Shown: positions 1,447-34,324 of the stretch, in pieces
Layout of the letters: each line of letters opens with the position of its first letter
Position numbering within the stretch: position 1 is the stretch's first letter
Virus record (IMG/VR): IMGVR_UViG_2690315992_000010
Strand: one strand, 5' to 3'
DNA from: a virus
Lineage: Duplodnaviria; Heunggongvirae; Uroviricota; Caudoviricetes
DNA: 35,687 nt
Notes under the pieces: model-generated
Database searches by the model: none
What the model was told of the DNA's origin: nothing
Seen by the model: the letters and a program-made list of their open reading frames with translations, nothing else
Program-made: the position numbers and the translations under genes

Positions 1447-1486
1447 GCCCCTATCGTTATAATACGCGGTAGGGGCGTTTTTGTTT
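1447..1486 (+). terminator. hairpin with T-tract between secreted-protein gene and recombinase gene
   Basis: GCCCCTA...TAGGGGC stem around a TTATAATA centre, followed by GTTTTTGTTT. Could be a terminator/attenuator or a recombinase-associated palindrome. Confidence 0.4.
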
Positions 1487-1495
1487 GGAAATGGT

Positions 1496-3175
1496 ATGAA
1501 AACTAAACTGTATTCGTATATTCGTTTCTCGTCTATGCGTCAGAATGATGGTTCGAGTTATGAACGACAAATCAGGATGGCTAGAGAGATTGCGGTAAAG
1601 TATGACCTTGAACTGGTAAATGATTATCAGGATCTGGGTGTATCTGCGTTTAAGGGTGCTAACTCCAAAACAGGGGCGCTATCTCGTTTCCTTGATGCAA
1701 TAGGTAGATCCGTTCCTGTTGGTAGCTGGCTATTCATCGAAAACTTGGACCGTTTATCCCGTGCCGATATTGTCAGTGCGCAGGAGTTATTCCTTTCAAT
1801 CATCCGTAGGGGGATAACCATTGTTACTGGCATGGATAACAAGATCTACTCGCTGGATACTGTTACCGCTAACCCGATGGACCTGATGTTCTCCATCCTT
1901 TTATTCATCCGTGGTAATGAGGAAAGCCAGACTAAGCGCAATCGTACTAACTCAAGCGCACTGATTAAGATTAAAGCTCATCAAGAAAATCCACAAAATC
2001 CGGCTGTTGCAATCGAGGAAATTGGAAAGAATATGTGGTGGACTGATACCACATCTGGTTATGTGCTTCCTCATCCGGTCTTCTTCCCTATTGTTCAGGA
2101 AGTTGTGGAATTACGCAGGAATGGACGGTCAACCGCCGAGATACTGGATCACCTTAACGCGACATACACACCACCACCAGCCGCAAGTCACAAGAGGCAT
2201 TCAAACTGGTCACGGGCAATGATTGAAAGGTTGTTCCATACCCGCGCTTTGATTGGTATCAAGGAAATCTCTGTAGATGGCGTTAAGTATGAGTTAAAGG
2301 ATTATTATCCTCGTGTGCTAGATGACGCTGAGTTTTATCACCTTAAGAAAAGCATTGGTGTTAGAGCATGTAACTTTGGAGACAAAGAAGAAGTTAAACC
2401 TATTCCCTTGCTTAGTGGTGTTGGTCTATTGAAATGTGAACATTGCGGTTCCGCTATGGTTAAGGTGAAAGGAACAAACAGACGGCCTAACCAATATCGT
2501 TATTCATGCGATGCAATGCGCTCTAGTCGTATTGAATGTGTGCATACAAACTGGAGTTTTCGCGGCGACCAATTAGAGAAAGCTGTATTGCAATTGCTGG
2601 CTGATAAAATCTGGATTGCTGAAGATAAGGCTAATCCGGTTCCGGCTTTGAAAGTACAGATTGATGAAATATCACGCAAGATTGATAACCTGATTACCCT
2701 TTCTGCTATGACAGGAGCAACGAAGGAGCTAGCCGATCAGATTACTACCCTCAATAGCGAGCGTGAAACACTCTACAATCAAATTAAGATGGCAGAAGAG
2801 GAAATGTATTCTGTTGACTCTCAAGGCTGGGAGAAGCTCGCAGAATTTGATTTAGAAGATGTTTACAACGAGGATCGCATTAAGGTCCGGTTTAAGATTA
2901 AGCAAGCTCTAAAACGGATCGGGTGTAGCAGGATTGACAAGTACAAAAACTTGTTTGTACTGGAATACATCGATGGCAAGACCCAGAGAGTTGTAATAGA
3001 AAATTCAAGAGGACCGAGGAAAGGCCGGATCTTCGTTGATTTGAAGACTATCAATGATAGGCAGATTCTGGAGAGTAACGGGCTTGTTCTGCATCCATGT
3101 TTAGACATGCTGACAGATAAGAACTGGAAACCAGAAGAAGAAATACCAGGTCCATTACAGGAATTTGGAATTTAA
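1496..3175 (+). CDS. large serine recombinase (putative serine integrase)
   Basis: N-terminal resolvase-type catalytic domain (YIRFSSMRQ...SYERQ, GVSAFKG, ENLDRLSRA), then recombinase domain, Cys-rich zinc-ribbon (CEHCGS...YRYSCD...CVH) and coiled-coil; 559 aa from ATG 1496. Track start 1481 is TTG; ATG 1496 is in frame. Confidence 0.8.
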   Translation: MKTKLYSYIRFSSMRQNDGSSYERQIRMAREIAVKYDLELVNDYQDLGVSAFKGANSKTGALSRFLDAIGRSVPVGSWLFIENLDRLSRADIVSAQELFLSIIRRGITIVTGMDNKIYSLDTVTANPMDLMFSILLFIRGNEESQTKRNRTNSSALIKIKAHQENPQNPAVAIEEIGKNMWWTDTTSGYVLPHPVFFPIVQEVVELRRNGRSTAEILDHLNATYTPPPAASHKRHSNWSRAMIERLFHTRALIGIKEISVDGVKYELKDYYPRVLDDAEFYHLKKSIGVRACNFGDKEEVKPIPLLSGVGLLKCEHCGSAMVKVKGTNRRPNQYRYSCDAMRSSRIECVHTNWSFRGDQLEKAVLQLLADKIWIAEDKANPVPALKVQIDEISRKIDNLITLSAMTGATKELADQITTLNSERETLYNQIKMAEEEMYSVDSQGWEKLAEFDLEDVYNEDRIKVRFKIKQALKRIGCSRIDKYKNLFVLEYIDGKTQRVVIENSRGPRKGRIFVDLKTINDRQILESNGLVLHPCLDMLTDKNWKPEEEIPGPLQEFGI

Positions 3176-5612: not shown

Positions 5613-5717
5613 TACGCCCCCGATATTTTTATATAGTTTAATGGCAAAATTATTTAGATAAAAATAATCCCGCCTAACTCAAAAGAATTAAGCGGGATTA
5701 ATTATTAGAATTAAATT

Positions 5718-18800: not shown

Positions 18801-19229
18801 ATTTTTATTAGCGTTGATGGTATCCGACAATTCAGCTTTAACACCAGCAAGATCGGAAGCAGCTTTATTTTTATTGGCCTCGATTGTCGCGTCGGTTTCG
18901 CGTTTAATTACATCAACTTTATTGTTAATTTCTGCGTGATTTGCTGCGATGGTTGCATCAGTAGTTTGTTTAATTTCATCTACTTTAGCGTGAATATTGC
19001 GGTCGTTTGCTGCAATTGTGCTATCTAATTCTTTCTTGTTAGCATCAACTTTAGATTCTAGTGCCGCGTGAGTTTCAGGAGAAACAGAGATTTGAACTAC
19101 TTCATGATCTCGGTCTTTGGTAAAAATAACATGGTCTTTAAGGTTGATTGCTACCTCACCGACCTGTAATTGTTCCGGCGTTGGTTTTTTGCCAGAAACA
19201 TTAGTTCGTTTAAATTGGATTGATTGCAT
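15804..19229 (-). CDS. long (side) tail fibre with C-terminal intramolecular chaperone / S74 autoproteolytic domain
   Basis: 1141 aa; N-terminal ~33-aa repeat units (DxTIAAN...KVDxIKxxTD); C-terminus ...GRELGVIAQDVEKVMPEAVHV...TISVSSINALFVKAFQEL matches the chaperone domain of endosialidase/L-shaped-fibre type proteins. Confidence 0.8.
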   Translation of the reverse strand: MQSIQFKRTNVSGKKPTPEQLQVGEVAINLKDHVIFTKDRDHEVVQISVSPETHAALESKVDANKKELDSTIAANDRNIHAKVDEIKQTTDATIAANHAEINNKVDVIKRETDATIEANKNKAASDLAGVKAELSDTINANKNAAAVATQELDTRINKKVDDIKSRTDATIASNHKAINDKVDLIKAETDRTIAANQAYAENQLTDTYNNLTGVIAANKQEAADSVAALTRDVEAKNTAIHSKIDNNKVYTDSELARLESRIDAADGSADGKYIKKHVNTYTDGYLLSKTANYFDDPNARNLDYFGAFRMNDLAGHIAMILHVPHPSGVNHARGFEFTYGSNPHATVRTYGYDELGNLSYSHRMYHEGDKPTPAEIGAYSKAEIDRLFQKTLNFGIEGGWFKLGSLTLPQQHGRSAKIRLVGGNGYNVGMNGQANIIELVIRCGNNSPKGVVFNAYYSIWYHEQHFCAIPTDGDNYDLYAYYGAHTGFVLAEYQVSSGGVSLNLLDTPEYLGGEKPVADEIFDALNISSFNNVSNRGTLNFAGNHQGQYDIEHMNEQQTNSKKMLRRFRSSAPATIWHESVDDQNYRLATGYDDVNQQLLLSAATGLHVKRLTLDGGVGNAGIDIRRGPNESSHFNFMDYRTGQDVRNGWFGFGDLTTKDFIWWNDNGQNSINLIEDGELHITGGKGQKIVMNSEVALSENARLAVKGGNYGLMLRNDGSSFHILTTDLKDSFGSWNNRRPFSYDFADGGLYLGGTATARCLHLGIDGSTRLEDNLFFKAGSRQSMDYMELVHWGASNTGRNNVLSLRDSKGFLAEFERLWDNTTKNTFFGKMKINRGSDAIIMNAESGDSSVYLLGTCADNNNWYIGKGGGDNGLAFYSYATNAAINLTNAGDIALSPKGVEMVHVNNARLYVHGERWTASQPGDWGNQWRVEAPIFVDHGYVGQDCYYPIVKARSLITNQGYTTAVDFGMRRIPNNWGQAIIRVGSAENSPDNGHPQAVFEFHHDGFFYTPGNGSFNDVHIRSDERLKINKEELEEGALDKLNSLTVYSYDKVKSLSDDTVVGRELGVIAQDVEKVMPEAVHVCSDGDTENPGEIKTISVSSINALFVKAFQELTTKYDAMNEELKAVKAELAAIKSCK

Positions 19230-27174: not shown

Positions 27175-27780
27175 ATGCTAATTAATCAGCAACAAAGAGA
27201 TGCATTAGAATTAGCCTTTTCTTGTTGTACCGATCATGAATATCGTTTGCCAGTTAAGCACCATCACAAGAAGACTGATTACACAACATCTGGCTTTAGT
27301 CGTGAGGAAGCTAAACAGATTTTAATCGAGTTGTATCGCGATCATGGGTATACCGATATTCATAACTTCTTTAAGAAGCATCGTACATCACAGACAGAGT
27401 TTAATAGAGTTCGTGAATGGTTTGATTTTGACATTAAGCGATTCTATCGAGTAGATGACGGTCCTATCTATCGGTTGCAGTGGACACCGATTAGGGAAGT
27501 GCTTAAACAGAAGAGATTGAATCATGCCATTACACGCTATCGTAATGTGGCTTTTAAGAAAGGCTATGGTGATTCAAGGGAATTGTTTGTAGAACTCGCT
27601 AACGTGCGATATAGCCACTATTACAGGAATCCTAAAGAGTTCTTCGAAGTGCTGCGCAAGGTTGATATTAGTCGGGGTACATATTATTCACGGTTGAAGA
27701 AGTACGGGATTAAGGCAGAGTTCTTTATGTCGGTTGACGATGGAGAACTTTTTCCGATAAAATGTAAGTCCTCTAAATAA
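27175..27780 (+). CDS. helix-turn-helix protein of unknown function (paralogue family member 1)
   Basis: 201 aa; contains FSREEAKQILIELYRD and C-terminal ISRGTYYSRLKKYGI segments that recur in the two small proteins at 27810 and 31471. Confidence 0.5.
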   Translation: MLINQQQRDALELAFSCCTDHEYRLPVKHHHKKTDYTTSGFSREEAKQILIELYRDHGYTDIHNFFKKHRTSQTEFNRVREWFDFDIKRFYRVDDGPIYRLQWTPIREVLKQKRLNHAITRYRNVAFKKGYGDSRELFVELANVRYSHYYRNPKEFFEVLRKVDISRGTYYSRLKKYGIKAEFFMSVDDGELFPIKCKSSK

Positions 27781-27809
27781 AGGTGAACATTCACTTTAAT
27801 TTGGAGAAA

Positions 27810-28043
27810 ATGACTATGACTACTAAAGCTACTCGCGGTCGCCCTGCCCGTTTTAACGCTGAACAGATGGCTGATATTGCCTACGCTTATTATACAGCGG
27901 ATCGTGGTAAGGAAGCGAAAGAACAGATTCTTAGTGAACATGGGATCTCAATCGCCCAATTCTATAAGAATATGAAGAAGTTGGACATTAAATTCTATGT
28001 TCAGATCGGTGATGGTCAGATCGTAGAAGCAACAGGTTTTTGA
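27810..28043 (+). CDS. small helix-turn-helix DNA-binding protein (paralogue 2)
   Basis: 77 aa from ATG 27810 (GGAG RBS); RGRPARFNAEQMADIAYAYY...ISIAQFYKNMKKLDI. Track start 27783 is GTG. Confidence 0.5.
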   Translation: MTMTTKATRGRPARFNAEQMADIAYAYYTADRGKEAKEQILSEHGISIAQFYKNMKKLDIKFYVQIGDGQIVEATGF

Positions 28044-28058
28044 GTTTTGATTCTCTTT

Positions 28059-28082
28059 GCCACTCTTCGGAGTGGCTTTTTT
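28059..28082 (+). terminator. intrinsic terminator
   Basis: GCCACTC-ttcg-GAGTGGC followed by TTTTTTG. Confidence 0.7.
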
Positions 28083-28203
28083 GTATGTAAAACAATCGGC
28101 GCAAAACTGCGCTCATTTCTAAGTTGAGTCCAAATCTGGACTGATCTATAGATGCATCCAAATCTGGAGGGATGCGCTTAAAGTTCAGCGCATCTACAGA
28201 TAC

Positions 28204-28228
28204 AAAAAAGCCCCTGAAATTCAGGGGC
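28204..28228 (-). terminator. intrinsic (bidirectional) terminator after Rha operon
   Basis: AAAAAA-GCCCCTGAA-at-TTCAGGGGC-AAAAATT; its right half is the TTCAGGGGCAAAAAT motif that forms the iteron array at 30.7-30.9 kb. Confidence 0.65.
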
Positions 28229-28236
28229 AAAAATTA

Positions 28237-29070
28237 TTACAGTCCGAAGACTTCCAGAGAGCCAGCATTCTGACGAATCAGCAAAGCAGTGTTATTAATG
28301 ATTGCTCGTGAGTTATTCGGCTGTGGCAATTTCAAAGTTGCGGCCTTTTCTTCTTCAAGCAATCCGAGTTTTACGAGATGCGGGATAGCATCAGCAGTGA
28401 ACTCGATCTGACCGTGTGCCGACATACGAGCGAACATATAGCCAGGAGGAAGCAGATCATAGCCTTTAGGCTTACCAGAAGCATCCAGACGACGCTCAAG
28501 AACACCAGCAGCACATAAACCTTTCAGAATCATTTGTACCTTCGTAGAGCCTCGTTTTTCGCCTAATAAGCGGCTAAGACTGTGTGCATCAATAGCTTTA
28601 CGGATATGAAGATCAACTAATTGTTCTTTTTCTTGAATCAGTTGTTCGTTTGCGGCTTCTAATTCCATTGCCTCACGAATCCAATCGAGCTTAGTCATGT
28701 TTGCGTATGGGTTGACTTGCTGAGAACGCAGTTTTTCATTTTCTTCTTTCAGTCGTTTCCATTCCTGAATAACAACCATTCGACGCTTAACATCGTAACC
28801 AGTGACAAGAGTCAGAGTCATTTCTTCGTCTAGTTGATATTCGTTTTGTTCGCGTCCGTATTGGTCAAAATAGATGACGCGAAACTTCGCGTGATCTTCA
28901 TAACCTAGAGCATTCAACATCTTAGTTATATCAACTTTAACTTTGTGGTGTTCTTTTCCGGTAAATTCAGCGATCTGACGAGAAGACATGGTCAGTGGTT
29001 TGGTGTTATCAACAACCAGAGACACGGAAGCAGTTTTAACAGCAGTATTCATAGTAGTAACAGTATTCAT
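28237..29070 (-). CDS. Rha-family phage regulatory protein / antirepressor
   Basis: N-terminal LTMSSRQIAEFTGKEHHKVKVDI matches the Rha-domain signature; ~150-aa C-terminal antirepressor-like domain. Confidence 0.65.
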   Translation of the reverse strand: MNTVTTMNTAVKTASVSLVVDNTKPLTMSSRQIAEFTGKEHHKVKVDITKMLNALGYEDHAKFRVIYFDQYGREQNEYQLDEEMTLTLVTGYDVKRRMVVIQEWKRLKEENEKLRSQQVNPYANMTKLDWIREAMELEAANEQLIQEKEQLVDLHIRKAIDAHSLSRLLGEKRGSTKVQMILKGLCAAGVLERRLDASGKPKGYDLLPPGYMFARMSAHGQIEFTADAIPHLVKLGLLEEEKAATLKLPQPNNSRAIINNTALLIRQNAGSLEVFGL

Positions 29071-29159
29071 AGTAAAAATTCCCCTTAAACGGTTTAGTGA
29101 TTTGGTCCTCCTAGTTCCGGCATCTCAACCGGAACAATTTTATTTATGATAGAAATTTA

Positions 29160-29492
29160 TTACCAATCGATTTCTACTTGGTCTTCTTCATAATAAGGAA
29201 TCGCATATTCATAACGCCAATTTTCGATGATTTCACGTTCTTCATTAGTAAGAAGGTGATTGTTAACTGGAGTCGCATTGTGATTACCAGCTTCGAATTG
29301 CTCGCGAACTTCCAGCATTGCATGAATACCAGTTAAGGTCATCAGATCAAACGGAACATGCATACTACGGGAGATAGTTTCACGGGATACACCCCAATCA
29401 TTTTCTACATGGCTAGGGGTTACAGAAACGGTTTTGCCGGAGATTTTAACAGTCCAGTCATACAGGGATTTAGTGATGGTAAATTCTTTCAT
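29160..29492 (-). CDS. hypothetical protein
   Basis: 110-aa ORF with AGAGGA RBS, first gene downstream of promoter at 29549-29577. Confidence 0.5.
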   Translation of the reverse strand: MKEFTITKSLYDWTVKISGKTVSVTPSHVENDWGVSRETISRSMHVPFDLMTLTGIHAMLEVREQFEAGNHNATPVNNHLLTNEEREIIENWRYEYAIPYYEEDQVEIDW

Positions 29493-29548
29493 GTTACATC
29501 CTCTTTACAAATCTAGGTCAAATAGGTTCAAAGTTGTCAAGCGCGATA

Positions 29549-29577
29549 ATCATAAAAAAGTCAGAAATTTTTGTCAA
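29549..29577 (-). promoter_or_regulatory. candidate sigma70 promoter (leftward) overlapped by palindromic operator
   Basis: Minus-strand -35 TTGACA (29577-29572), 17-bp spacer, -10 TATGAT (29554-29549). Palindrome TTGTCAA-tacccc-TTGACAA at 29571-29590 overlaps the -35. Confidence 0.4.
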
Positions 29578-29612
29578 TACCCCTTGACAAGACGCCAAAG
29601 GGTTGACCTAAC

Positions 29613-30071
29613 TTACAGCATATCTAAGCCTTCATCGTAACCGTAGAAGCCACCGTGAGAAGAGAAAGCGATTGGTGCGTAGTCTTCGTCTTCCTCATCT
29701 TGTTCTGGGGCTTCCTGAGCGGTTTCTTTACCGTAATTAAACATTGCTTCATCCAGTTCACGAAGAGTCAAGAAGCTACCCAGGTCAATGTCACCGGAAC
29801 GGACTTGAAACGGCAGATCATCACGAACAATAATTGCTGGTAGATTCTGGTACTTTAAGCGTTCTTCATCGGTGAAGACGTTAACAACAATGGTCGGCTT
29901 CTTATTACGGCAAAACGCATACCATGCACTAGAGAAATGGGATTCATCAGAGTTGAAAAGGATGTTATAACCACGTTCACGGAACATCTTCATTAACTTG
30001 TCATTGTGGAAGCTATCAGAATCCAGACCCAGAAGGATAAAAGGAGTAGTGGTAGTCATCTTGTGGTTCAT
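29613..30071 (-). CDS. hypothetical protein with acidic C-terminal tail
   Basis: 152 aa, GAGGA RBS; C-terminus EAPEQDEEDEDYAP; no domain recognised. Confidence 0.5.
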   Translation of the reverse strand: MNHKMTTTTPFILLGLDSDSFHNDKLMKMFRERGYNILFNSDESHFSSAWYAFCRNKKPTIVVNVFTDEERLKYQNLPAIIVRDDLPFQVRSGDIDLGSFLTLRELDEAMFNYGKETAQEAPEQDEEDEDYAPIAFSSHGGFYGYDEGLDML

Positions 30072-30713
30072 AGTGGAAATCCTCTAAAAGAAAGTGAATC
30101 AAACAAATTACACTAGTATTTATAACGAGAATTTTTTATCTATTTGGAAGGGATTGGTATTCAGTCGGGCATAGCCCTCCTTCATAGATTTTGATTAAAT
30201 CATCATCAAAACGAAGAAGTATCTTTAGAATATAAGAATCTTTCTTTCGAAGAAAGAATAATCAGGAAGCAATTTCAGCAACCGCAGGTTGCGATCCCGA
30301 AGGGATAACCAATACCTTTCTAGAAAGTGATTGTTACTCACTTCGTTCGTTTACTAGAATCAGTTATCATCTAGTATTAAAATCCCTTTCTAAGAAAATC
30401 CTTTCAAAAGTGATTCTCGATGCCACGCAGTGGCGTCGCAGACGTTTGAGAGTGAGCGAAGCGAGCGAGCAAACTAGTTAATTCCTTCTAAGACCATCTA
30501 GTATCATCTAGTTTAAATTAGTTGTTACTAGAAGTAATTGGTTAGCGCTACGCGCAGTCGGGCAAAGCCCTCCTAATATCTTTTTGGTTATTTTTGGTTT
30601 TACACATGAGCGTAGCGAATGTGTTATATAATATCTATGCACGCCCGATTCCCCGTTTTTACCCCTCACTAAGTTAATGTTTTATAAAGAGTTTTTCTTA
30701 CCAATCCTTTTCG

Positions 30714-30906
30714 GGGGCAAATTTCAGGGGCAAAAATTAGATTTTAAGGGGCAATTATTGGCATTTCAGGGGCAAAAATGAGGGGCAAAATCACTGTTTC
30801 CCAGAATTTCAGGGGCAAAAATAGTGGGTTTCAGGGGCAAAAATGGGATAGTGGAATCTTGGGTATTTTGGTTCGGGGGCAAAATTCAGAATTTCAGGGG
30901 CAATTC
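30714..30906. repeat. array of ~9 direct GGGGCAA(A/T) iterons (5 copies of full TTTCAGGGGCAAAAAT)
   Basis: Core starts near 30715, 30727, 30749, 30770, 30782, 30811, 30832, 30876, 30897; spacings mostly 12 or 21 bp; non-coding. Confidence 0.6.
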
Positions 30907-30993
30907 CCATCAAATATTTTGATAGAAAATTCTTGTATATTATTTAATCAAAAAATCACCAAAAAGTGGCGTAAGTTAATGATTTAAAAAGAA

Positions 30994-31019
30994 TTGTCAA
31001 AAGGTCTCCGTGCTATAAT
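30994..31019 (+). promoter_or_regulatory. candidate extended -10 promoter (rightward)
   Basis: TTGTCAA at 30994-31000 and TGcTATAAT at 31011-31019. Confidence 0.35.
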
Positions 31020-31099
31020 AGGTTATAAAGGTTGATAATCCTGATCTACCATTTTCAAACAAAAATTTTGATAGTCATTTCTCGCTTAGGTCAAGTGTA

Positions 31100-31128
31100 T
31101 TGACAACTGTCAAGGATTATTTTATACT
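31100..31128 (+). promoter_or_regulatory. candidate strong sigma70 promoter (rightward) with palindromic -35 region
   Basis: TTGACA (31100-31105), 17-bp spacer, TATACT (31123-31128); -35 lies in palindrome TTGACAACTGTCAA. Confidence 0.5.
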
Positions 31129-31263
31129 TTTTCTCACTGGTGGGGGTTGAAATTTTCTAAACAGTCCCCATATAGATGATAAGCAAGAATTTCCACGTTA
31201 TAAATACATGTGTGAAATGATTGTTCACTTCTGAAAATCTCCTGATCCACTGCTAATTCATAC

Positions 31264-31291
31264 AGCACTGGTTAGATATACAGTGCTTTTT
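31264..31291 (+). terminator. intrinsic terminator-like hairpin (possible end of a ~160-nt small RNA)
   Basis: AGCACTG-gttagatata-CAGTGCT followed by TTTT. Confidence 0.4.
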
Positions 31292-31415
31292 CGGTTGAAT
31301 ATTGTACGAATTGATTAATAATTAATCTTCTCTTTAGCAATTCGTGCTCCCACTGATCGGATATACAGTGGTTTTACAGGGTTTTCTGAAAATCATTTTA
31401 TAAATACAAGTGTTC

Positions 31416-31436
31416 AGAGCGAAATGCTCTTTTTTA
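31416..31436 (+). terminator. attenuator hairpin immediately upstream of gene 31471
   Basis: AGAGC-gaaat-GCTCT followed by TTTTTT. Confidence 0.45.
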
Positions 31437-31470
31437 AGAAATTATTAATCCACATGTGAGGAATCGACTG

Positions 31471-31650
31471 ATGGCTAGACCTGTTAAGTTCACTCGTGAA
31501 ATGATTGTTGATATTGCTAAACGCTTTTACAGCGACACTGAGCGAGGCGGGGAAAACTTCTTTAAGAAGGAAGGAATTGATAGAAGCGGATTCTACAAGC
31601 TAATGAAGAAATACGAAATTCAGGTAAAGATTAACGTTCAAGTTTGTTAA
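31471..31650 (+). CDS. small helix-turn-helix DNA-binding protein (paralogue 3)
   Basis: 59 aa from ATG 31471 (GAGGA RBS); ARPVKFTREMIVDIAKRFY...IDRSGFYKLMKKYEI parallels the 27810 protein. Track start 31456 is GTG. Confidence 0.5.
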   Translation: MARPVKFTREMIVDIAKRFYSDTERGGENFFKKEGIDRSGFYKLMKKYEIQVKINVQVC

Positions 31651-31765
31651 TCCACTTTCACTGAGAATTATATGATGGCTTTAAAAAAAGAAAAAGCCTC
31701 CCTTGTTGCAGCAAAGGAGGCTTGAAATGAACAATTAAAACTAACTTTCTACAGGAGTATTTATA

Positions 31766-32710
31766 ATGTTATTTTCCGCTAACTTTTTCACTAACGAAGT
31801 AACCAACGCTAAAGCAGTTATCAAATTTGGCACCGAAGCAAACAAGAAGATTCAGCCGAAAGTTGTTGTTCATGTTTCCTTTGCGCAGCAGAAATCCGCT
31901 TTCGCTGGCTTTAAAGCACATCGTGAAGCACTGATCGCGGCTGGCTTTGGTGTTGACGGTAAACTGCCTAACGGCATTCGTAAAGCAATCGACCGCGTTA
32001 AACCTGCTAAAGACGTTGCAGTAGACCACATCGTTACTTTCACCGTTAAGAACTCTTCTGAACTGTTCCACCTAGTGATTGCTGGTGATACTGCTATCGT
32101 TTCCGCTCCTAACATGGATTTTCAGGATACCGCTGATTGCAACATTACCTTTGGTCGTCGTAAAGAAGTTACCGGAAAAGCTAAACTGAACTTCACCAAA
32201 TCCGGCAATCCTTACTTTGCTGTATTCTTTAACAGCCACGCTACTGAGAAAGAAGTAGTAGAACTGGTTGCATATGAAGGTGAAGAAAAAGCACGTATTG
32301 AATCTTGCGACGCTTTCGTAGAACTGGAAGCACAGGTTAATGCTGTTTCTCCGGTTGCTGTTGAAGATCGTTTCTCTGCACTGGAAGCACAGATCGCAGA
32401 ACTGAAAGCTGCGCTGGAAGAAAAAGACCAGATCATCGAAGCACAGAAAGCTGAGATTGAAGAACTGAAAGCTAAAGAAGTTGCTCCGGTGGCAGTAGTT
32501 GAAAATGCGGCTGATGAGGCCGCAAATGATGAAGTAGAAGTGAAAATCGATGTGATGCGTGATCCGATGGCTGCACTGCAATTGCTTCGTTCTTTTAAGG
32601 GCAAATCTCATTTTTCTAGTGATGCGGTAGACGAGGAAGAAGAACAGAAACGCAATGTTGCAATGCTTCATGATGAAATGTACGGTACTAACTTTTCTTA
32701 CTGCCAATAA
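31766..32710 (+). CDS. hypothetical protein, apparently highly expressed (N-terminal globular part, C-terminal Ala/Glu-rich coiled-coil-like region)
   Basis: 314 aa; consensus AGGAG RBS 8 nt before ATG; codon usage strongly skewed to CTG/CGT/GGT/GAA/AAA/GCT; bracketed by terminators. No family recognised. Confidence 0.6.
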   Translation: MLFSANFFTNEVTNAKAVIKFGTEANKKIQPKVVVHVSFAQQKSAFAGFKAHREALIAAGFGVDGKLPNGIRKAIDRVKPAKDVAVDHIVTFTVKNSSELFHLVIAGDTAIVSAPNMDFQDTADCNITFGRRKEVTGKAKLNFTKSGNPYFAVFFNSHATEKEVVELVAYEGEEKARIESCDAFVELEAQVNAVSPVAVEDRFSALEAQIAELKAALEEKDQIIEAQKAEIEELKAKEVAPVAVVENAADEAANDEVEVKIDVMRDPMAALQLLRSFKGKSHFSSDAVDEEEEQKRNVAMLHDEMYGTNFSYCQ

Positions 32711-32714
32711 AAAA

Positions 32715-32732
32715 GGGACTCCGAAGAGTCCC
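32715..32732. terminator. bidirectional intrinsic terminator
   Basis: AAAAAA-GGGACTC-cgaa-GAGTCCC-TAGTAAGTTT; stronger T-tract on minus strand. Confidence 0.55.
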
Positions 32733-32806
32733 TAGTAAGTTTAGGTTAGGTTTGCACAACAAAGATGAACATAATGCTACATTATTCTTTAAAGCCAGAA
32801 AAATAA

Positions 32807-32824
32807 CCGCCTCTTTCGAGGCGG
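32807..32824 (-). terminator. intrinsic terminator (minus strand)
   Basis: CCGCCT-ctttcg-AGGCGG with minus-strand T-tract (TTATTTTTCT). Confidence 0.5.
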
Positions 32825-32981
32825 GAGGATTAATACTCAATCTATACTTGTTATGTTTTTATGTTGTATAGATCCTGACTATGAAAACACTGTACTGGAG
32901 TGTGTTTTATGGCTTTTAATCGGGAATCCTCAAAGAAGATCCCCTGTTAATAACCATAAGGAGAAAAGGCAGATTACACTA

Positions 32982-33155
32982 TTATTTAGTATCCTTTTTA
33001 CAGCAACTAAAAAGAATAAACAAAAAGAAGCATACCCAGCCGTAAGGCGTACCGATTAGAAATTTGAAAAACACCACCAGCGATATAAAAATCAATTTAA
33101 TGCCAGCGACGATAGTCAAAAACAGCAGAGTAGCAAAGTAGACAAAAAGATCCAT
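32982..33155 (-). CDS. small hydrophobic membrane protein, ~57 aa (two predicted TM segments)
   Basis: ATG ~33155 with AGAGGA RBS; MDLFVYFATLLFLTIVAGIKLIFISLVVFFKFLIGTPYGWVCFFLFILF...; not in ORF track. Confidence 0.25.
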   Translation of the reverse strand: MDLFVYFATLLFLTIVAGIKLIFISLVVFFKFLIGTPYGWVCFFLFILFSCCKKDTK

Positions 33156-33208
33156 AGATAATCCTCTTTGAAAACGACCATCATCTATAGTTCAATTCAT
33201 CGATTTAA

Positions 33209-33310
33209 TTAATTATACTTGAAAGCGTTACACAAAGTAGAAATGCCAATATGTGCCAGTGAATATACGATAGTTAATCCTACAGCCAGATAAATCAAAA
33301 ATTCAACCAT
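33209..33310 (-). CDS. small hydrophobic peptide, ~33 aa
   Basis: ATG ~33310 with GAGGA RBS; MVEFLIYLAVGLTIVYSLAHIGISTLCNAFKYN; not in ORF track. Confidence 0.2.
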   Translation of the reverse strand: MVEFLIYLAVGLTIVYSLAHIGISTLCNAFKYN

Positions 33311-33408
33311 AGGTAAATCCTCAAATAAGAAAAAGGTTAGCGGGGGATGTTCTCCCCCGTAGGCGTTGACCCATTCAACACCCTTCACATATATTTAGTA
33401 TCTAATTT

Positions 33409-33966
33409 TTACGACACATCAAATTCATCATCTTCTTCTGGTTCTTGTTCTTCCGGTTCATCCATTAATGGTAATTCTTCTTCCTCGTCTTCTCCCAAAT
33501 CTGCATTTTCGAACAAGTCCCCTACTTCATTTAAACGACGCTCGATGATCTCCCTTAGCTTATTCTTCAATGTTTTCTGGTCAGTTGCAGATTCGAGAAT
33601 TTCTAAAGCGTCGATTGTGGCGATCTGCAAAATAGTCTGTTTCACTTTCCCGCAGTATTCCGCTAGTTGCTGTTCTACATAACCGACAGGAATCAGGAGA
33701 TTCATTTTTTCCTGGTTCTCTCGTTCGGCTGCATCTGCCATTGCTCTTTCTCTGCGGAGACGTTCTTGATCAATCGCTTCTTTGATTGAAGTTTGTTTAA
33801 GTGGGTTAATTACGTTCTTTAGCACCCAATCGCAACCTTCCTTTGCTGGAACACGCCTCTTATTGGTATTGTAAGGTAGTCCCCTTTCTAACCATCGCTT
33901 ACCGCCACCATTCAATGTATAACCATATAAACGGGAAATTTCTGTAAGGGTTAATTCTTCTTTCAT
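33409..33966 (-). CDS. terminase small subunit (Nu1-like) candidate
   Basis: N-terminal HTH segment LTLTEISRLYGYTLNGGGKRWLERGLPY resembles the Nu1 DNA-binding domain pattern; central coiled-coil; strongly acidic C-terminus; GGAGGA RBS; palindromes and GC-rich site just upstream. Confidence 0.5.
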   Translation of the reverse strand: MKEELTLTEISRLYGYTLNGGGKRWLERGLPYNTNKRRVPAKEGCDWVLKNVINPLKQTSIKEAIDQERLRRERAMADAAERENQEKMNLLIPVGYVEQQLAEYCGKVKQTILQIATIDALEILESATDQKTLKNKLREIIERRLNEVGDLFENADLGEDEEEELPLMDEPEEQEPEEDDEFDVS

Positions 33967-33984
33967 TGGTTATCCTCCATTAAA

Positions 33985-34043
33985 TTTGCGTAATTTTATT
34001 TATTGGTTTTACGCAAAATCTAAGCGCCTAAAACGCGTTTTAG
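33985..34043. promoter_or_regulatory. palindromic protein-binding sites upstream of small terminase gene (cosB-like candidates)
   Basis: Inverted repeat TTTGCGTAA-N15-TTACGCAAA (33985-34017) and perfect 16-bp palindrome CTAAAACGCGTTTTAG (34028-34043). Confidence 0.4.
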
Positions 34044-34090
34044 CGAAGGGAAAGATCCAGTAATGGTAAGGGTTAGGAAGGGGGTTAATA

Positions 34091-34109
34091 GTCGCGTAGC
34101 GACCGCGCC
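34091..34109. other. candidate cos nicking region (GC-rich island with dyad symmetry)
   Basis: GTCGCGTAGCGACCGCGCC in AT-rich context ~125-145 bp upstream of the Nu1-like start, the position expected for cosN in lambda-like genomes. Inference only. Confidence 0.25.
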
Positions 34110-34324
34110 ATGAGTGAAGTGATCACGTTTTAAAATCTCACACGCACATCAAATACCGGGGTGCCGAAAACTCCCTTTATTTCATCCGTGGAACAGTACC
34201 TTTTTAATTTGTCAAGCATTAATTTCTTAATTTAATTACTAAATCTCATCCCAATAATTGAAAAAATATCAAAAATCAATAAAGTAAGCATCTAAAAGTC
34301 AGTCCATACCAAAAGAGGTATAAA

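What the first reader, a model, noticed from the sequence alone, without database searches (positions are those of the whole stretch)
30072..31470. 1.4 kb non-coding hub dense in hairpins, short repeats and CTAG motifs
No plausible ORF, yet many stable stem-loops with small loops (TTCTTTC-GAA-GAAAGAA near 30242-30258, GCAAC-cgcag-GTTGC and ATCCC-GAA-GGGAT near 30279-30306, GCCAC-GCA-GTGGC near 30421-30433), several CCTTTCTA(G/A) copies, and at least 7 CTAGT/CTAGA sites although CTAG is generally avoided in enterobacterial DNA. It also holds the iteron array and the promoters/attenuators listed separately. This is the profile of a replication origin, packaging/partition-type site or structured non-coding RNA locus rather than spacer DNA.
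Basis: seen in the sequence. Interest (0 to 1): 0.75.

Follow-up and report, generated by a model that had tools for sequence, protein, structure and literature searches.

The report
Prophage control hub with swappable iterons
The 1.4 kb gene-free stretch is the conserved control centre of an undescribed family of E. coli and Salmonella prophages: it holds promoters, DNA mini-hairpins, and a repeat array that always matches one neighbouring orphan protein, and it is most likely the phage's replication origin.

Summary
Window 30072-31470 has no conserved ORF. It has 8 CTAG sites in 30113-30531, about ten times the window density. The four named hairpins are present, and both strands of 30140-30660 fold better than all shuffles (z -5.3 and -4.5).

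The window is a whole ~35 kb prophage inserted in ycdX. It has a serine integrase and no recognisable replication gene or CI-type repressor. A gap of 1.16-1.45 kb lies between the same divergent genes in all 47 relatives examined, from E. coli and Salmonella.

The hub is modular:
- a leftward promoter box;
- a field of GC mini-hairpins, mostly with C-GNA-G triloops, whose stems change while the loops persist;
- a ~130 bp block shared with intergenic repeats of T4-like Krischvirus phages;
- nine 21-22 bp-phased GGGGCAAAA iterons;
- an AT-rich segment;
- two tandem sigma-70 promoters;
- a ~330 nt leader with three terminator-like hairpins.

Iteron type matches the allele of the downstream 314-aa orphan protein in 43 of 43 loci. 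No other gene tracks it, TerS included.

Best reading: an iteron-type origin (p314 as initiator, hairpins as priming or extrusion signals) nested between the early promoters (confidence ~0.5). Rivals are a pure operator array and PeSL-like shuffling cassettes. Packaging, partition and Rfam RNA readings are not supported.

The parts
30110..30127 (-). Promoter-like box TTATAAATAC-TAG-TGT, 45 nt upstream of the p152 start codon (30071); leftward operon p152-p110-Rha
   Evidence: TATAAATA is invariant in the 14-sequence alignment and is also present in Salmonella relatives.
30160..30185 (.). Hairpin GGGC-ATA-GCCC with conserved flanks CAGTC...TCCTTCAT; a second copy lies at 30555-30574
   Evidence: repeat D12, 95% identical. 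Compensatory variants in relatives: GGCC/GGCC, GTGC/GCAC, CGGC/GCCG.
30184..30306 (+). Block shared with intergenic repeats of Krischvirus (RB49-like T4-type phages). Contains hairpins 30242-30258, 30278-30292 (GNA loop) and 30294-30306 (GAA loop).
   Evidence: about 78% identity over 81 nt, then two adjacent GC hairpins at the same place in both (the second carries a GAA triloop in two of the four phage copies, AAA in the others). Stems are replaced and loops kept in L007, L079 and L081.
30313..30420 (.). CTAG / CCTTTC...AAAGTGAT boxes common to all iteron types (CTAG at 30320, 30354, 30371)
   Evidence: 76-92% of 41 sequences match the window base per 20-nt block.
30421..30712 (.). Iteron-type-specific half of the hairpin field. 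Hairpins: GCCAC-GCA-GTGGC (30422-30434), CGTC-GCA-GACG (30434-30444), GCGAAGC (30456-30462), GCGC-TAC-GCGC (30545-30555), GGGC-AAA-GCCC (30560-30570), ACACAT[GCGTAGC]ATGTGT (30602-30624). Also the tandem decamers CATCTAGTAT/CATCTAGTTT (30495-30514) and an inverted, degenerate iteron (30655-30667).
   Evidence: this segment is 88-99% identical among the E. coli type A loci, but only ~46% in type B and ~18% in type C. Types B and C have different hairpins at the same place.
30709..30908 (+). Iteron array: 9 direct copies of (TTTCA)GGGGCAA(AAAT). Start-to-start spacings are 13, 21, 21, 13, 30, 22, 42 and 21 bp.
   Evidence: Replaced by GTGTAGG, CGGGGA, CCTCCTAC or CTAGGGAT arrays in relatives.
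30906..30990 (.). AT-rich segment next to the iterons, common to iteron types A, B and C; contains the palindrome ATCAAA-TAT-TTTGAT
   Evidence: 30908-30967 is the 5th least stable 60-mer of the 35.7 kb window (about +3 SD). Conserved 81-100% across types in form-1 hubs.
30990..31134 (+). Two tandem rightward sigma-70 promoters: an extended -10 TGcTATAAT (31011-31019) and TTGACA-17-TATACT (31100-31128). The second overlaps the palindrome GTCAA-gtgta-TTGAC-aact-GTCAA (31090-31113), which looks like an operator.
   Evidence: (11/12 match). The alternative form of this module in L008 also has two promoters, scoring 11/12 and 12/12.
31135..31470 (+). Leader of the p59-p314 operon. Features in order: GGGG...CCCC hairpin (31140-31169); boxes TTATAAATAC-WWG-TGT (31196-31213 and 31396-31413); terminator-like hairpins 31262-31294, 31349-31378 and 31416-31437; long-range stem ACGAATTG/CAATTCGT (31303-31347); DnaA-box-like TAATCCACA (31446-31454); RBS.
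   Evidence: D7, D13; stem 31298-31350, z = -4.6. Block 31332-31351 is the best conserved of the right half (0.94).
31766..32710 (+). p314, the presumptive iteron-binding protein: a variable beta-rich N-terminal ~170 aa, then a coiled coil and an acidic tail. It lies outside the finding but is its cognate partner.

Best explanation
The region is the non-coding control centre of a small temperate phage. The window is the whole ~35 kb prophage, inserted in ycdX. The region combines an iteron-type replication origin with the divergent early promoters.

Shown:
- Nine phased GGGGCAAAA iterons, together with the ~290 bp of hairpins and CTAG repeats to their left, form one specificity module. At least five versions of this module exist.
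- Each version always co-occurs with its own allele of the downstream orphan protein p314. An independently assorting promoter module sits between the iterons and the p314 gene, so the pairing is kept by function rather than by linkage.

Inferred:
- p314 binds the iterons through its variable N-terminal domain and oligomerises through its coiled coil.
- Binding opens an adjacent AT-rich segment. The candidates are 30906-30990, and the AT-rich spacer between the inverted iteron and the direct array.
- The host replisome is recruited, because the phage encodes no helicase, primase or polymerase.
- The C-GNA-G mini-hairpins on both strands are extrudable DNA hairpins. They would serve as single-strand initiation or primosome signals, or as protein landmarks, as in G4 oric and RSF1010 oriV ssiA/ssiB.
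- Firing is gated by p314 supply. The p59-p314 operon is driven by two strong promoters, one carrying an operator-like palindrome, and must read through three terminator-like hairpins.
For: Conservation:
- The gap is kept at 1.16-1.45 kb between the same genes in 47 loci from E. coli and Salmonella, although p152 falls to ~37% identity.

Iterons and p314:
- The iterons are direct repeats on a dominant 21-22 bp spacing (six of the eight intervals are near multiples of 10.5 bp; two are 13 bp), restricted to this site.
- Iteron type matches p314 allele in 43/43 loci. TerS, p201, p86, Rha, p110, p152 and p59 do not track it.
- Types D and E in Salmonella include inverted copies, as expected for dsDNA binding.

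Origin features:
- The AT-rich neighbour of the iterons is among the five least stable 60-mers of the window.
- No replication protein is recognisable among the ORFs scanned: every ORF outside the structural operon, plus four inside it. The window spans the prophage from att to att.
- A conserved DnaA-box-like TAATCCACA is present in 12 of 16 loci, and L015 has three perfect TTATCCACA boxes next to p305.

Hairpins:
- 18 of 32 distinct GC triloop hairpins carry GNA on one strand or the other, nearly all closed by C:G. The share is 14% elsewhere in the window.
- Stems are exchanged between genera while the loops are kept.
- Such mini-hairpins are reported at G4 oric, at RSF1010 ssiA (CCGAAGG) and in N4 promoters (PMC13037366).
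Against: - DnaA boxes are not enriched in the window.
- The AT-rich segment is no less stable than several ordinary promoter regions.
- The hairpin field lies on the opposite side of the iterons from the main AT-rich block, unlike RSF1010 oriV.
- Repressor-operator pairs also swap as specificity modules. In type D the repeats run up to the promoter, which fits autoregulation or repression equally well.
- No replication, binding or transcription data exist.
Confidence: 0.5

Rival explanations
1. Pure regulatory region. p314 is a transcription regulator or immunity determinant and the iterons are its operator or enhancer array. The five iteron/p314 types would be heteroimmunity groups. Replication starts elsewhere or relies entirely on host functions.
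For: No CI-type repressor is recognisable in the genome, so some orphan protein must set immunity. Specificity swapping is typical of repressor-operator pairs. In Salmonella type D the repeats extend to the -35 of the proximal promoter. p314 has a leucine-zipper-like coiled coil.
Against: In the window the array ends ~90 bp upstream of the first promoter and overlaps none. Nine or more one-orientation repeats on a two-turn spacing are unusual for operators. The promoter-proximal palindrome (31090-31113) is shared by iteron types A, B and C, so something other than p314 reads it. This reading leaves the phage with no origin and no initiator.
Confidence: 0.25
2. The left half (30140-30660) is a stack of PeSL-like promoter/stem-loop cassettes of the kind described in RB49 and phi1. 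These would be transcription insulators and recombination linkers that mediate module shuffling. The hairpins would have no role in replication.
For: There is direct homology to repeated intergenic elements of Krischvirus, including the paired hairpins. PeSL stem-loops act as terminators and as crossover points (PMC2839356). The hub is mosaic, and one module boundary falls at a hairpin (30421). Elsewhere in the prophage, ATAAATA boxes sit inside or beside GC hairpins. The tail-fibre gene is 82-86% identical to Krischvirus gp37.
Against: No sigma-70 early promoter is recognisable in the shared block. No ORF cassettes lie between the hairpins. The field sits between divergent promoters, so there is little transcription to insulate. 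The strong bias towards C-GNA-G loops and the type-specific half are not explained. This rival is compatible with the origin reading for the iterons.
Confidence: 0.3
3. Packaging (cos/pac) or partition (centromere) site bound by p314 or TerS.
For: Phased direct repeats with a cognate coiled-coil protein resemble ParR/parC-type or KfrA-type systems. The hub lies between the TerS and TerL genes.
Against: TerS alleles are independent of iteron type. The Nu1-like TerS has its own upstream GC-rich inverted-repeat region. All 62-69 occurrences in complete E. coli genomes are chromosomal and none is on a plasmid, so a partition function has no obvious use. p314 matches no ParB, ParR or ParG family.
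Confidence: 0.05
4. The hairpin/CTAG half encodes one or more structured non-coding RNAs.
For: Folding is highly significant, stems covary, and GNA loops are biased towards the + strand (12 against 6 distinct hairpins).
Against: Both strands fold almost equally well, as expected for DNA palindromes. No promoter above chance lies inside the region. There is no Rfam match, even at E = 5. The region lies between promoters that point away from it. GNA loops occur on both strands in separate clusters.
Confidence: 0.08

Closest known systems
Iteron origins with a cognate initiator: lambda ori/O protein and its specificity variants in lambdoid phages; P1 oriR/RepA; pSC101
   Same: Direct repeats in helical phase next to an AT-rich segment. 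The repeats and the DNA-binding part of one protein are exchanged together between related elements. The initiator gene lies downstream of regulated promoters, which allows autoregulation.
   Different: The initiator candidate is an orphan beta-rich plus coiled-coil protein, not a winged-helix Rep or an O-type protein. The iterons lie ~860 bp from its gene, with an independent module between them (in lambda they lie inside the O gene). There are nine or more repeats. No helicase loader is encoded. Function is untested.
RSF1010 oriV (iterons + AT-rich + ssiA/ssiB) and the G4-type complementary-strand origin
   Same: An iteron block is combined with short GC hairpins carrying GNA-type loops on opposite strands. 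ATCCC-GAA-GGGAT contains the CCGAAGG core quoted for ssiA (PMC13037366).
   Different: RSF1010 supplies its own primase, helicase and initiator, whereas this phage supplies none that is recognisable. Here about ten hairpins are spread over 500 bp, on the far side of the iterons from the main AT-rich block. There is no sequence homology.
PeSL promoter/stem-loop cassettes of RB49 and phi1 (Arbiol et al. 2010, PMC2839356; Comeau et al. 2014, PMC4122927)
   Same: Real sequence homology (~78% over 81 nt plus two hairpins) to repeated intergenic elements of the same phage genus. GC stem-loops sit in AT-rich intergenic DNA. The regions are mosaic and shuffled.
   Different: This is a temperate siphovirus-like prophage rather than a T4-type phage. 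No sigma-70 early promoter is recognisable in the shared block. No ORFan cassettes are flanked by the elements. I could not confirm that the matching RB49 repeats are among the published PeSLs.
T4 late promoter TATAAATA (own knowledge of the consensus)
   Same: An 8-bp, -10-only box with no conserved -35. It is excluded from coding DNA and sits 25-70 nt upstream of start codons. Three exact copies lie in the hub and one more at its right flank, overlapping the p314 ribosome-binding site.
   Different: No gp55, gp33 or gp45 homologue was found in the prophage. The boxes precede early-type regulatory genes as well as structural genes. Recognition by sigma-70 plus an activator is not excluded.
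Leader-controlled early operons (lambda nut/N, P4 immunity leader with CI RNA)
   Same: Strong constitutive-looking promoters are followed by a long untranslated leader with several terminators and repeated sequence elements, ahead of the first early gene.
   Different: There is no boxA/boxB match, no C4/CI-type Rfam hit and no N- or Q-like protein. The mechanism is unknown.

Membership tests
Iteron-type replication origin | Three or more direct repeats of ~17-22 bp in helical phase | tested here: met
   Nine GGGGCAA cores, all on one strand, with a dominant 21-22 bp spacing.
Iteron-type replication origin | Repeats are bound by a cognate, element-encoded initiator | tested here: inconclusive
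   Binding is not testable here. As a proxy, iteron type matches p314 allele in 43/43 loci and no other gene tracks it.
Iteron-type replication origin | Initiator belongs to a known Rep/O family (winged-helix fold) | tested here: not met
Iteron-type replication origin | Adjacent AT-rich DNA-unwinding element | tested here: inconclusive
   30908-30967 is the 5th least stable 60-mer of the window, but it is similar to other promoter regions.
Iteron-type replication origin | DnaA boxes or host-factor sites | tested here: inconclusive
   One 8/9 box, at 31446, is conserved in 12 of 16 loci. L015 has three perfect boxes. There is no enrichment in the window.
Iteron-type replication origin | Supports autonomous replication or incompatibility | not testable with these tools
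   Needs cloning of the hub with and without p314.
PeSL cassette (T4-type phages) | Repeated intergenic element with a GC stem-loop, homologous among copies | tested here: met
   Window 30184-30306 aligns with 2-4 intergenic copies per Krischvirus genome, including the two hairpins.
PeSL cassette (T4-type phages) | Strong sigma-70-like early promoter within the element | tested here: not met
   No -35/-10 pair was flagged in 30140-30320 or found by eye in either the window or the RB49 copy.
Single-strand initiation signal (G4 / RSF1010 ssi type) | Stable hairpin with a C-GNA-G or GCGNAGC mini-hairpin core | tested here: met
   Window cores: GCGAAGC (30456), GCGTAGC (30610), CCCGAAGGG (30296). 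18 of 32 distinct hairpins in the family are GNA type.
Single-strand initiation signal (G4 / RSF1010 ssi type) | Directs primer synthesis on ssDNA | not testable with these tools
   Needs an M13 ssi-rescue assay or an in vitro primase assay.
Rfam non-coding RNA families | Covariance-model match at or near the gathering score | tested here: not met
   No hit at gathering over the whole window. The best hit at E <= 5 scores 31 bits against an 81-bit threshold.
cos/pac packaging site | Recognition repeats covary with the small terminase | tested here: not met
   TerS is 85-95% identical across iteron types A, B and C.
Intrinsic terminators (leader) | GC stem followed by a T run | tested here: met
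   31416-31430 followed by TTTTTT is flagged. 31262-31294 (7 bp stem + TTTTT) and 31349-31378 (6 bp stem + TTTT) were seen in the sequence and in folds, but each is individually weak.

The most novel reading that the evidence does not exclude
The hub is the switchboard of a temperate phage family whose transcription is wired like that of a T4-type phage.

- Every ATAAATA heptamer in the genome is intergenic (13 of 13, against 10.4 expected in coding DNA). Eleven of them sit 25-70 nt upstream of a start codon with no -35, which matches the T4 late-promoter consensus.
- Three extended copies (TTATAAATAC-WWG-TGT) head the two divergent operons of the hub.
- The hairpin field, and a tail-fibre gene elsewhere in the prophage, are shared with Krischvirus.

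Either the prophage encodes an unrecognised gp55-like specificity factor, or its operons are switched on by the late-transcription machinery of a superinfecting T4-like phage. In the second case it would be a prophage that senses, exploits or defends against T4-like infection. The C-GNA-G hairpins would then be supercoil-extruded DNA signals rather than RNA.
Probability: 0.12. Interest if true: 0.85.

Novelty: new variant of a known kind. Interest (0 to 1): 0.62.

Why it matters
About 1% of complete E. coli genomes (58-63 of 5426), and many Salmonella, carry this prophage. It matches no cultured phage closely; the best TerL match is 43%.

If the reading is right, it defines a new initiator family (p314) with at least five interchangeable DNA specificities. 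Such a set is a natural resource for studying how protein-DNA recognition is rewired, and a possible source of orthogonal replicons.

It would also show how a 35 kb phage replicates with only one dedicated protein, and would give extrudable C-GNA-G DNA mini-hairpins a biological role in a double-stranded DNA phage.

The homology with Krischvirus intergenic cassettes and the T4-late-like promoter boxes point to regulatory DNA moving between virulent T4-type phages and temperate phages. That traffic has been proposed for PeSLs but has not been documented across such different phage lifestyles.

Tried and rejected
- Rfam at gathering and at E <= 5: nothing credible.
- tRNA/tmRNA scan: none.
- Megablast and blastn of the hub against phages: only the 81-nt Krischvirus block. 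Against plasmids: nothing.
- p314:
  - No Pfam or PHROG hit beyond coiled-coil noise for alleles A, B and C or the Salmonella-like allele.
  - No PDB sequence hit.
  - The 5.8-billion-protein search returned only near-identical E. coli proteins.
  - The exhaustive representative search found only two real relatives, at 55% and 39% identity.
- p201: no Pfam, PHROG or PDB hit and no tblastn match in phages, so no link to gp55.
- Genome-contig scan with the p152 profile: no relatives in species-representative genomes.
- Literature search for a ycdX prophage: irrelevant hits only.
- DnaA-box enrichment: none.
- Mini-ORF reading of AGGAGG-GCTATG-CCCGACTGA at 30160-30181 (minus strand): rejected, because the ATG lies in the variable hairpin loop and is absent in most relatives.
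- TrpR, MetJ, omega-heptad, CRP, FNR and IHF resemblances of the CTAG, AAGTGATT and TTGAT motifs were considered by eye. They were dropped as too weak to test.
Full report
**What the window is.** The 35,687-base window is essentially one complete prophage.
- Its right end (35,337 onward) is the E. coli gene ycdX. In strain GN4741 the same element lies between the two halves of ycdX.
- It encodes a large serine integrase (1481-3175), an endolysin, tail, capsid and portal genes, a lambda gpA-type large terminase (5718-27086, minus strand) and a Nu1-like small terminase (33409-33966, minus strand).
- The only possible early region is 27175-33400. It holds p201, p86, a Rha/Ant-like protein, p110 and p152, then the 1.4 kb gap, then p59 and p314.
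- None of these proteins, and no other ORF that was scanned, matches a replication protein or a CI-type repressor.
- The closest cultured phage shares only 43% identity in TerL.
- The element occurs in 58-63 of 5426 complete E. coli genomes, always on the chromosome.

**Check of the observation.**
- The four named hairpins are at 30242-30258, 30278-30292, 30294-30306 and 30422-30434.
- Eight CTAG sites, all CTAGT or CTAGA, lie between 30113 and 30531. The window density would give about 0.7 in that span.
- Both strands of 30140-30660 fold far better than shuffles: z -5.3 and -4.5, with 0 of 100 shuffles as good.
- GC-rich triloop hairpins are ten times denser here than in the rest of the window.
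- The only ORFs are 34-69 codons. PGAP leaves the gap unannotated in 12 of 13 genomes inspected.
- CCTTTCTA occurs twice in the region, not 'several' times.

**It is conserved as non-coding DNA.**
- A gap of 1160-1447 bp separates the p152 and p59 homologues in 43 E. coli-type loci.
- Gaps of 1303-1428 bp separate them in Salmonella relatives, whose p152 is only ~37% identical to the window's.
- In several loci p152 is 58-63% identical, yet segments of the hub are 94-97% identical at nucleotide level.

**Anatomy, left to right**.
1. 30110-30127, minus strand: TTATAAATAC-TAG-TGT, 45 nt before the p152 start codon.
2. 30140-30420: a part common to all relatives. It holds the GGGC-NNN-GCCC hairpin with conserved flanks, the Krischvirus-like block with three hairpins, and CTAG / CCTTTC...AAAGTGAT boxes.
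3. 30421-30712: more mini-hairpins (GCCAC-GCA-GTGGC, CGTC-GCA-GACG, GCGAAGC, GCGC-TAC-GCGC, GGGC-AAA-GCCC, and ACACAT...ATGTGT enclosing GCGTAGC). It also holds the tandem decamers CATCTAGTAT/CATCTAGTTT and one inverted degenerate iteron.
4. 30709-30908: nine direct GGGGCAA(AA) iterons on a 21-22 bp frame.
5. 30906-30990: an AT-rich segment, the fifth least stable 60-mer of the window.
6. 30990-31134: an extended -10 promoter (TGcTATAAT) and a near-consensus promoter (TTGACA-17-TATACT). The -35 of the second lies in a GTCAA/TTGAC palindrome.
7. 31135-31470: a leader with a GGGG...CCCC hairpin, two more TTATAAATAC-WWG-TGT boxes, three hairpin-plus-T-run elements, a strong long-range stem (z -4.6), a DnaA-box-like TAATCCACA, and the p59 ribosome-binding site.

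**The key comparative result.** The iteron array is exchanged between relatives.
- The types are GGGGCAAAA (A), GTGTAGG (B) and CGGGGA (C) in E. coli-type loci, and CCTCCTAC (D) and CTAGGGAT (E) in Salmonella.
- In 43 of 43 loci the iteron type coincides with the allele of one protein, p314. Its N-terminal ~170 residues are unalignable between types.
- tblastn with p314-A finds nothing in B or C loci. p201, p86, Rha, p110, p152, p59 and TerS alleles are distributed independently of iteron type.
- The type-specific DNA is 30421-30905, so it includes half of the hairpin/CTAG field.
- Between this module and the p314 gene lies the promoter/leader module. It exists in two unrelated forms that assort independently of iteron type.
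- The iteron-p314 match is therefore maintained by selection and not merely by proximity. This is the signature of a cognate DNA site and its binding protein.

**The hairpins.**
- Across 47 hubs there are 32 distinct GC-rich triloop hairpins. Twelve have a GNA loop on the + strand and six on the - strand. Nearly all are closed by C:G.
- That makes 56% GNA-type, against 14% in the rest of the window and 12.5% expected.
- Stems are replaced wholesale while position and loop are kept. GCAACC-GMA-GGTTGC (M = A or C) becomes GACGCTC-TCCA-GAGCGTC in L007 and GGATGC-GTA-GCATCC in Salmonella. ATCCC-GAA-GGGAT becomes TCCGC-GAA-GCGGA or TCCAC-GAA-GTGGA. GGGC/GCCC becomes CGGC/GCCG, GGCC/GGCC or GTGC/GCAC.
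- The structure is therefore selected.
- The field lies between promoters that point away from it, has no internal promoter above chance, folds equally well on both strands, and carries GNA loops on both strands in separate clusters. I therefore read the hairpins as DNA-level rather than RNA-level elements.
- C-GNA-G and GCGNAGC mini-hairpins are exceptionally stable as DNA. They are reported at the G4 complementary-strand origin, in ssiA of RSF1010 oriV (CCGAAGG) and in N4 virion-polymerase promoters (PMC13037366; PMC3201870, abstract listed).

**Link to T4-type phages.**
- The only similarity of the hub to any cultured phage is 30184-30265, about 78% identical to an intergenic element present 2-4 times per Krischvirus genome (RB49, phi1 and relatives).
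- Aligned copies show that the similarity continues into two adjacent GC hairpins. The second carries a GAA triloop in two of the four phage copies and AAA in the other two. In two of the four copies a TATAAATA box follows the hairpins.
- These phages are known for PeSL promoter/stem-loop cassettes that terminate transcription and act as crossover points for module shuffling (PMC2839356).
- I could not find the sigma-70 promoter that defines a PeSL in the shared block, so I do not file the block as a PeSL.
- The prophage's tail-fibre gene is 82-86% identical in DNA to Krischvirus gp37, so exchange between the two phage types is real.

**Most likely mechanism.** I favour an iteron-type origin embedded in the early control region (confidence about 0.5).
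- Shown: phased repeats; their exclusive covariation with p314; an AT-rich neighbour; selected DNA hairpins; strong regulated promoters and a terminator-rich leader upstream of p59-p314; and no other replication function in the genome.
- Inferred, binding and opening: p314 binds the iterons and oligomerises through its coiled coil. It opens adjacent AT-rich DNA and recruits the host replisome, possibly with DnaA. One conserved near-consensus DnaA box is present, and L015 has three perfect boxes.
- Inferred, hairpins and control: the mini-hairpins act as priming, primosome or extrusion signals on either strand. Transcription from the tandem promoters both supplies p314 and may activate the origin. 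In lysogens p314 supply is cut off at the operator-like palindrome and at the three terminators.
- Weaknesses: p314 resembles no known initiator. DnaA boxes are not enriched. The AT-rich block is not exceptional among promoter regions. The geometry differs from RSF1010.

**Rivals.**
- A purely regulatory array, with p314 as repressor or immunity determinant, is the main rival (0.25). It explains type swapping and the type D repeats that reach the promoter. It does not explain nine or more one-orientation phased repeats that overlap no promoter in the window, and it leaves the phage without an origin.
- A PeSL-like insulator/recombination role for the hairpin field (0.3) is compatible with the origin reading for the iterons.
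- Packaging or partition (0.05) is disfavoured by the TerS result, by the candidate cos site upstream of TerS, and by the purely chromosomal occurrence.
- A structured RNA in the left half (0.08) lacks a promoter and any family match.
- Decayed genes or spacer DNA are excluded by the conservation pattern.

**A wider pattern seen on the way.**
- The heptamer ATAAATA occurs 13 times in the window and never in coding DNA (10.4 expected in coding, 3.0 in intergenic).
- Eleven copies lie 25-70 nt upstream of a same-strand start codon, with no conserved -35. The genes concerned include TerL, TerS, p201, Rha, p152, p59 and tail genes.
- The same positions are kept in L015, L079 and L081.
- This is the T4 late-promoter consensus, as I know it from the literature. 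No gp55-like protein was found.
- Three of the four TATAAATA boxes in or beside the hub share the extension C-WWG-TGT. They probably head the two divergent operons.
- Whether sigma-70 with an activator, an unrecognised phage factor, or a superinfecting T4-like phage reads them is open. This is the most novel reading not excluded by the evidence (probability ~0.12).

**Verdict.** The feature is a new variant of a known kind. It is an iteron origin and control region with an orphan, swappable initiator candidate, an unusual field of C-GNA-G DNA mini-hairpins, and regulatory cassettes shared with T4-type phages. Interest 0.62.

Noticed in passing
window, whole; sites at 978, 4449, 10739, 12017, 15765, 27116, 27141, 29141, 30117, 31200, 31400, 31758, 33997: All 13 ATAAATA heptamers are intergenic (10.4 expected in coding DNA). 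Eleven lie 25-70 nt upstream of a same-strand start codon with no conserved -35, which resembles the T4 late-promoter box. The positions are conserved in L015, L079 and L081. Several sit inside or beside GC hairpins (10739, 12017, 15765).
   Followed up: partly
window 31684-31765, minus strand: A TATAAATA box (31758-31765, minus strand, overlapping the p314 ribosome-binding site) is followed 35 nt later by a strong minus-strand terminator (31723-31694 plus a T run). Together they would make a ~65-nt RNA antisense to the p59-p314 spacer. The hairpin is conserved in L015 and L016.
   Followed up: no
window 15804-19229 (minus strand): The tail-fibre gene is 82-86% identical at DNA level to the long tail fibre distal subunit (gp37) of Krischvirus phages (MIZ4, KFS-EC). 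This indicates recent exchange between a temperate prophage and T4-type phages.
   Followed up: partly
window 27783-28043 (+) and 31471-31650 (+): p86 and p59 are paralogous small proteins with a helix-turn-helix-like motif (ARPxKF..E...GI..S.FYK.MKK) that resembles the N-terminal DNA-binding domain of small terminases. They have no family hit. They are candidates for reading the CTAG or TATAAATAC-WWG-TGT boxes.
   Followed up: no
window 31198-31236 vs 31485-31509: The leader contains an 80%-identical copy of the 5' coding region of p59 (GTGAAATGATTGTT / GTTCACT..TGAAA). It could be a partial duplication or a regulatory mimic. Both copies contain TTCAC/GTGAA inverted repeats.
   Followed up: no
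window 33967-34130: The region upstream of the Nu1-like TerS gene holds inverted repeats (GCGTAA...TTACGC) and a GC-rich stretch, GTCGC-GTA-GCGAC-CGCGCC. By position it is the likely cos site, and it also contains a GNA-loop hairpin.
   Followed up: no
L015 5676-6000: In the relative recovered from sequencing run SRR33798269 (L015; its p152 homologue is 97% identical to a Salmonella enterica protein), the p60-p305 spacer is enlarged and carries three perfect DnaA boxes (TTATCCACA at 5692, 5712, 5851) plus another TATAAATAC box.
   Followed up: partly
window 30670-30693 and 30972-30995: A 24-nt direct repeat (TAAGTTAATGWTTTAWAAAGARTT, 88% identical) brackets the iterons plus AT-rich block. It is a possible joint for module exchange, and the right copy carries the upstream part of the first promoter.
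   Followed up: no
E. coli HeN100, NZ_CP044443.1 ~2392097-2397307 (hits H53, H78): An IS5-like ISKpn26 element is annotated under a two-piece match to window 29000-33000. Separately, the hub alignment in this strain starts only at query position ~300 (window ~30371). The element may therefore sit in or near the left part of the hub.
   Followed up: no
window 32982-33155 and 33209-33388 (minus strand): Two small hydrophobic ORFs (57 and 59 aa) lie in the otherwise empty 700 bp between p314 and TerS. They may be membrane peptides (holin-like or toxin-like).
   Followed up: no
window 29613-30071 (minus strand), C-terminus of p152: p152 ends in a disordered acidic tail with an invariant aromatic tip (DY.P...S..G.YGY....ML). 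The p314 alleles also share a short C-terminal motif (LHD..Y.TN.S) after an acidic stretch. These may be docking peptides for a host protein.
   Followed up: no
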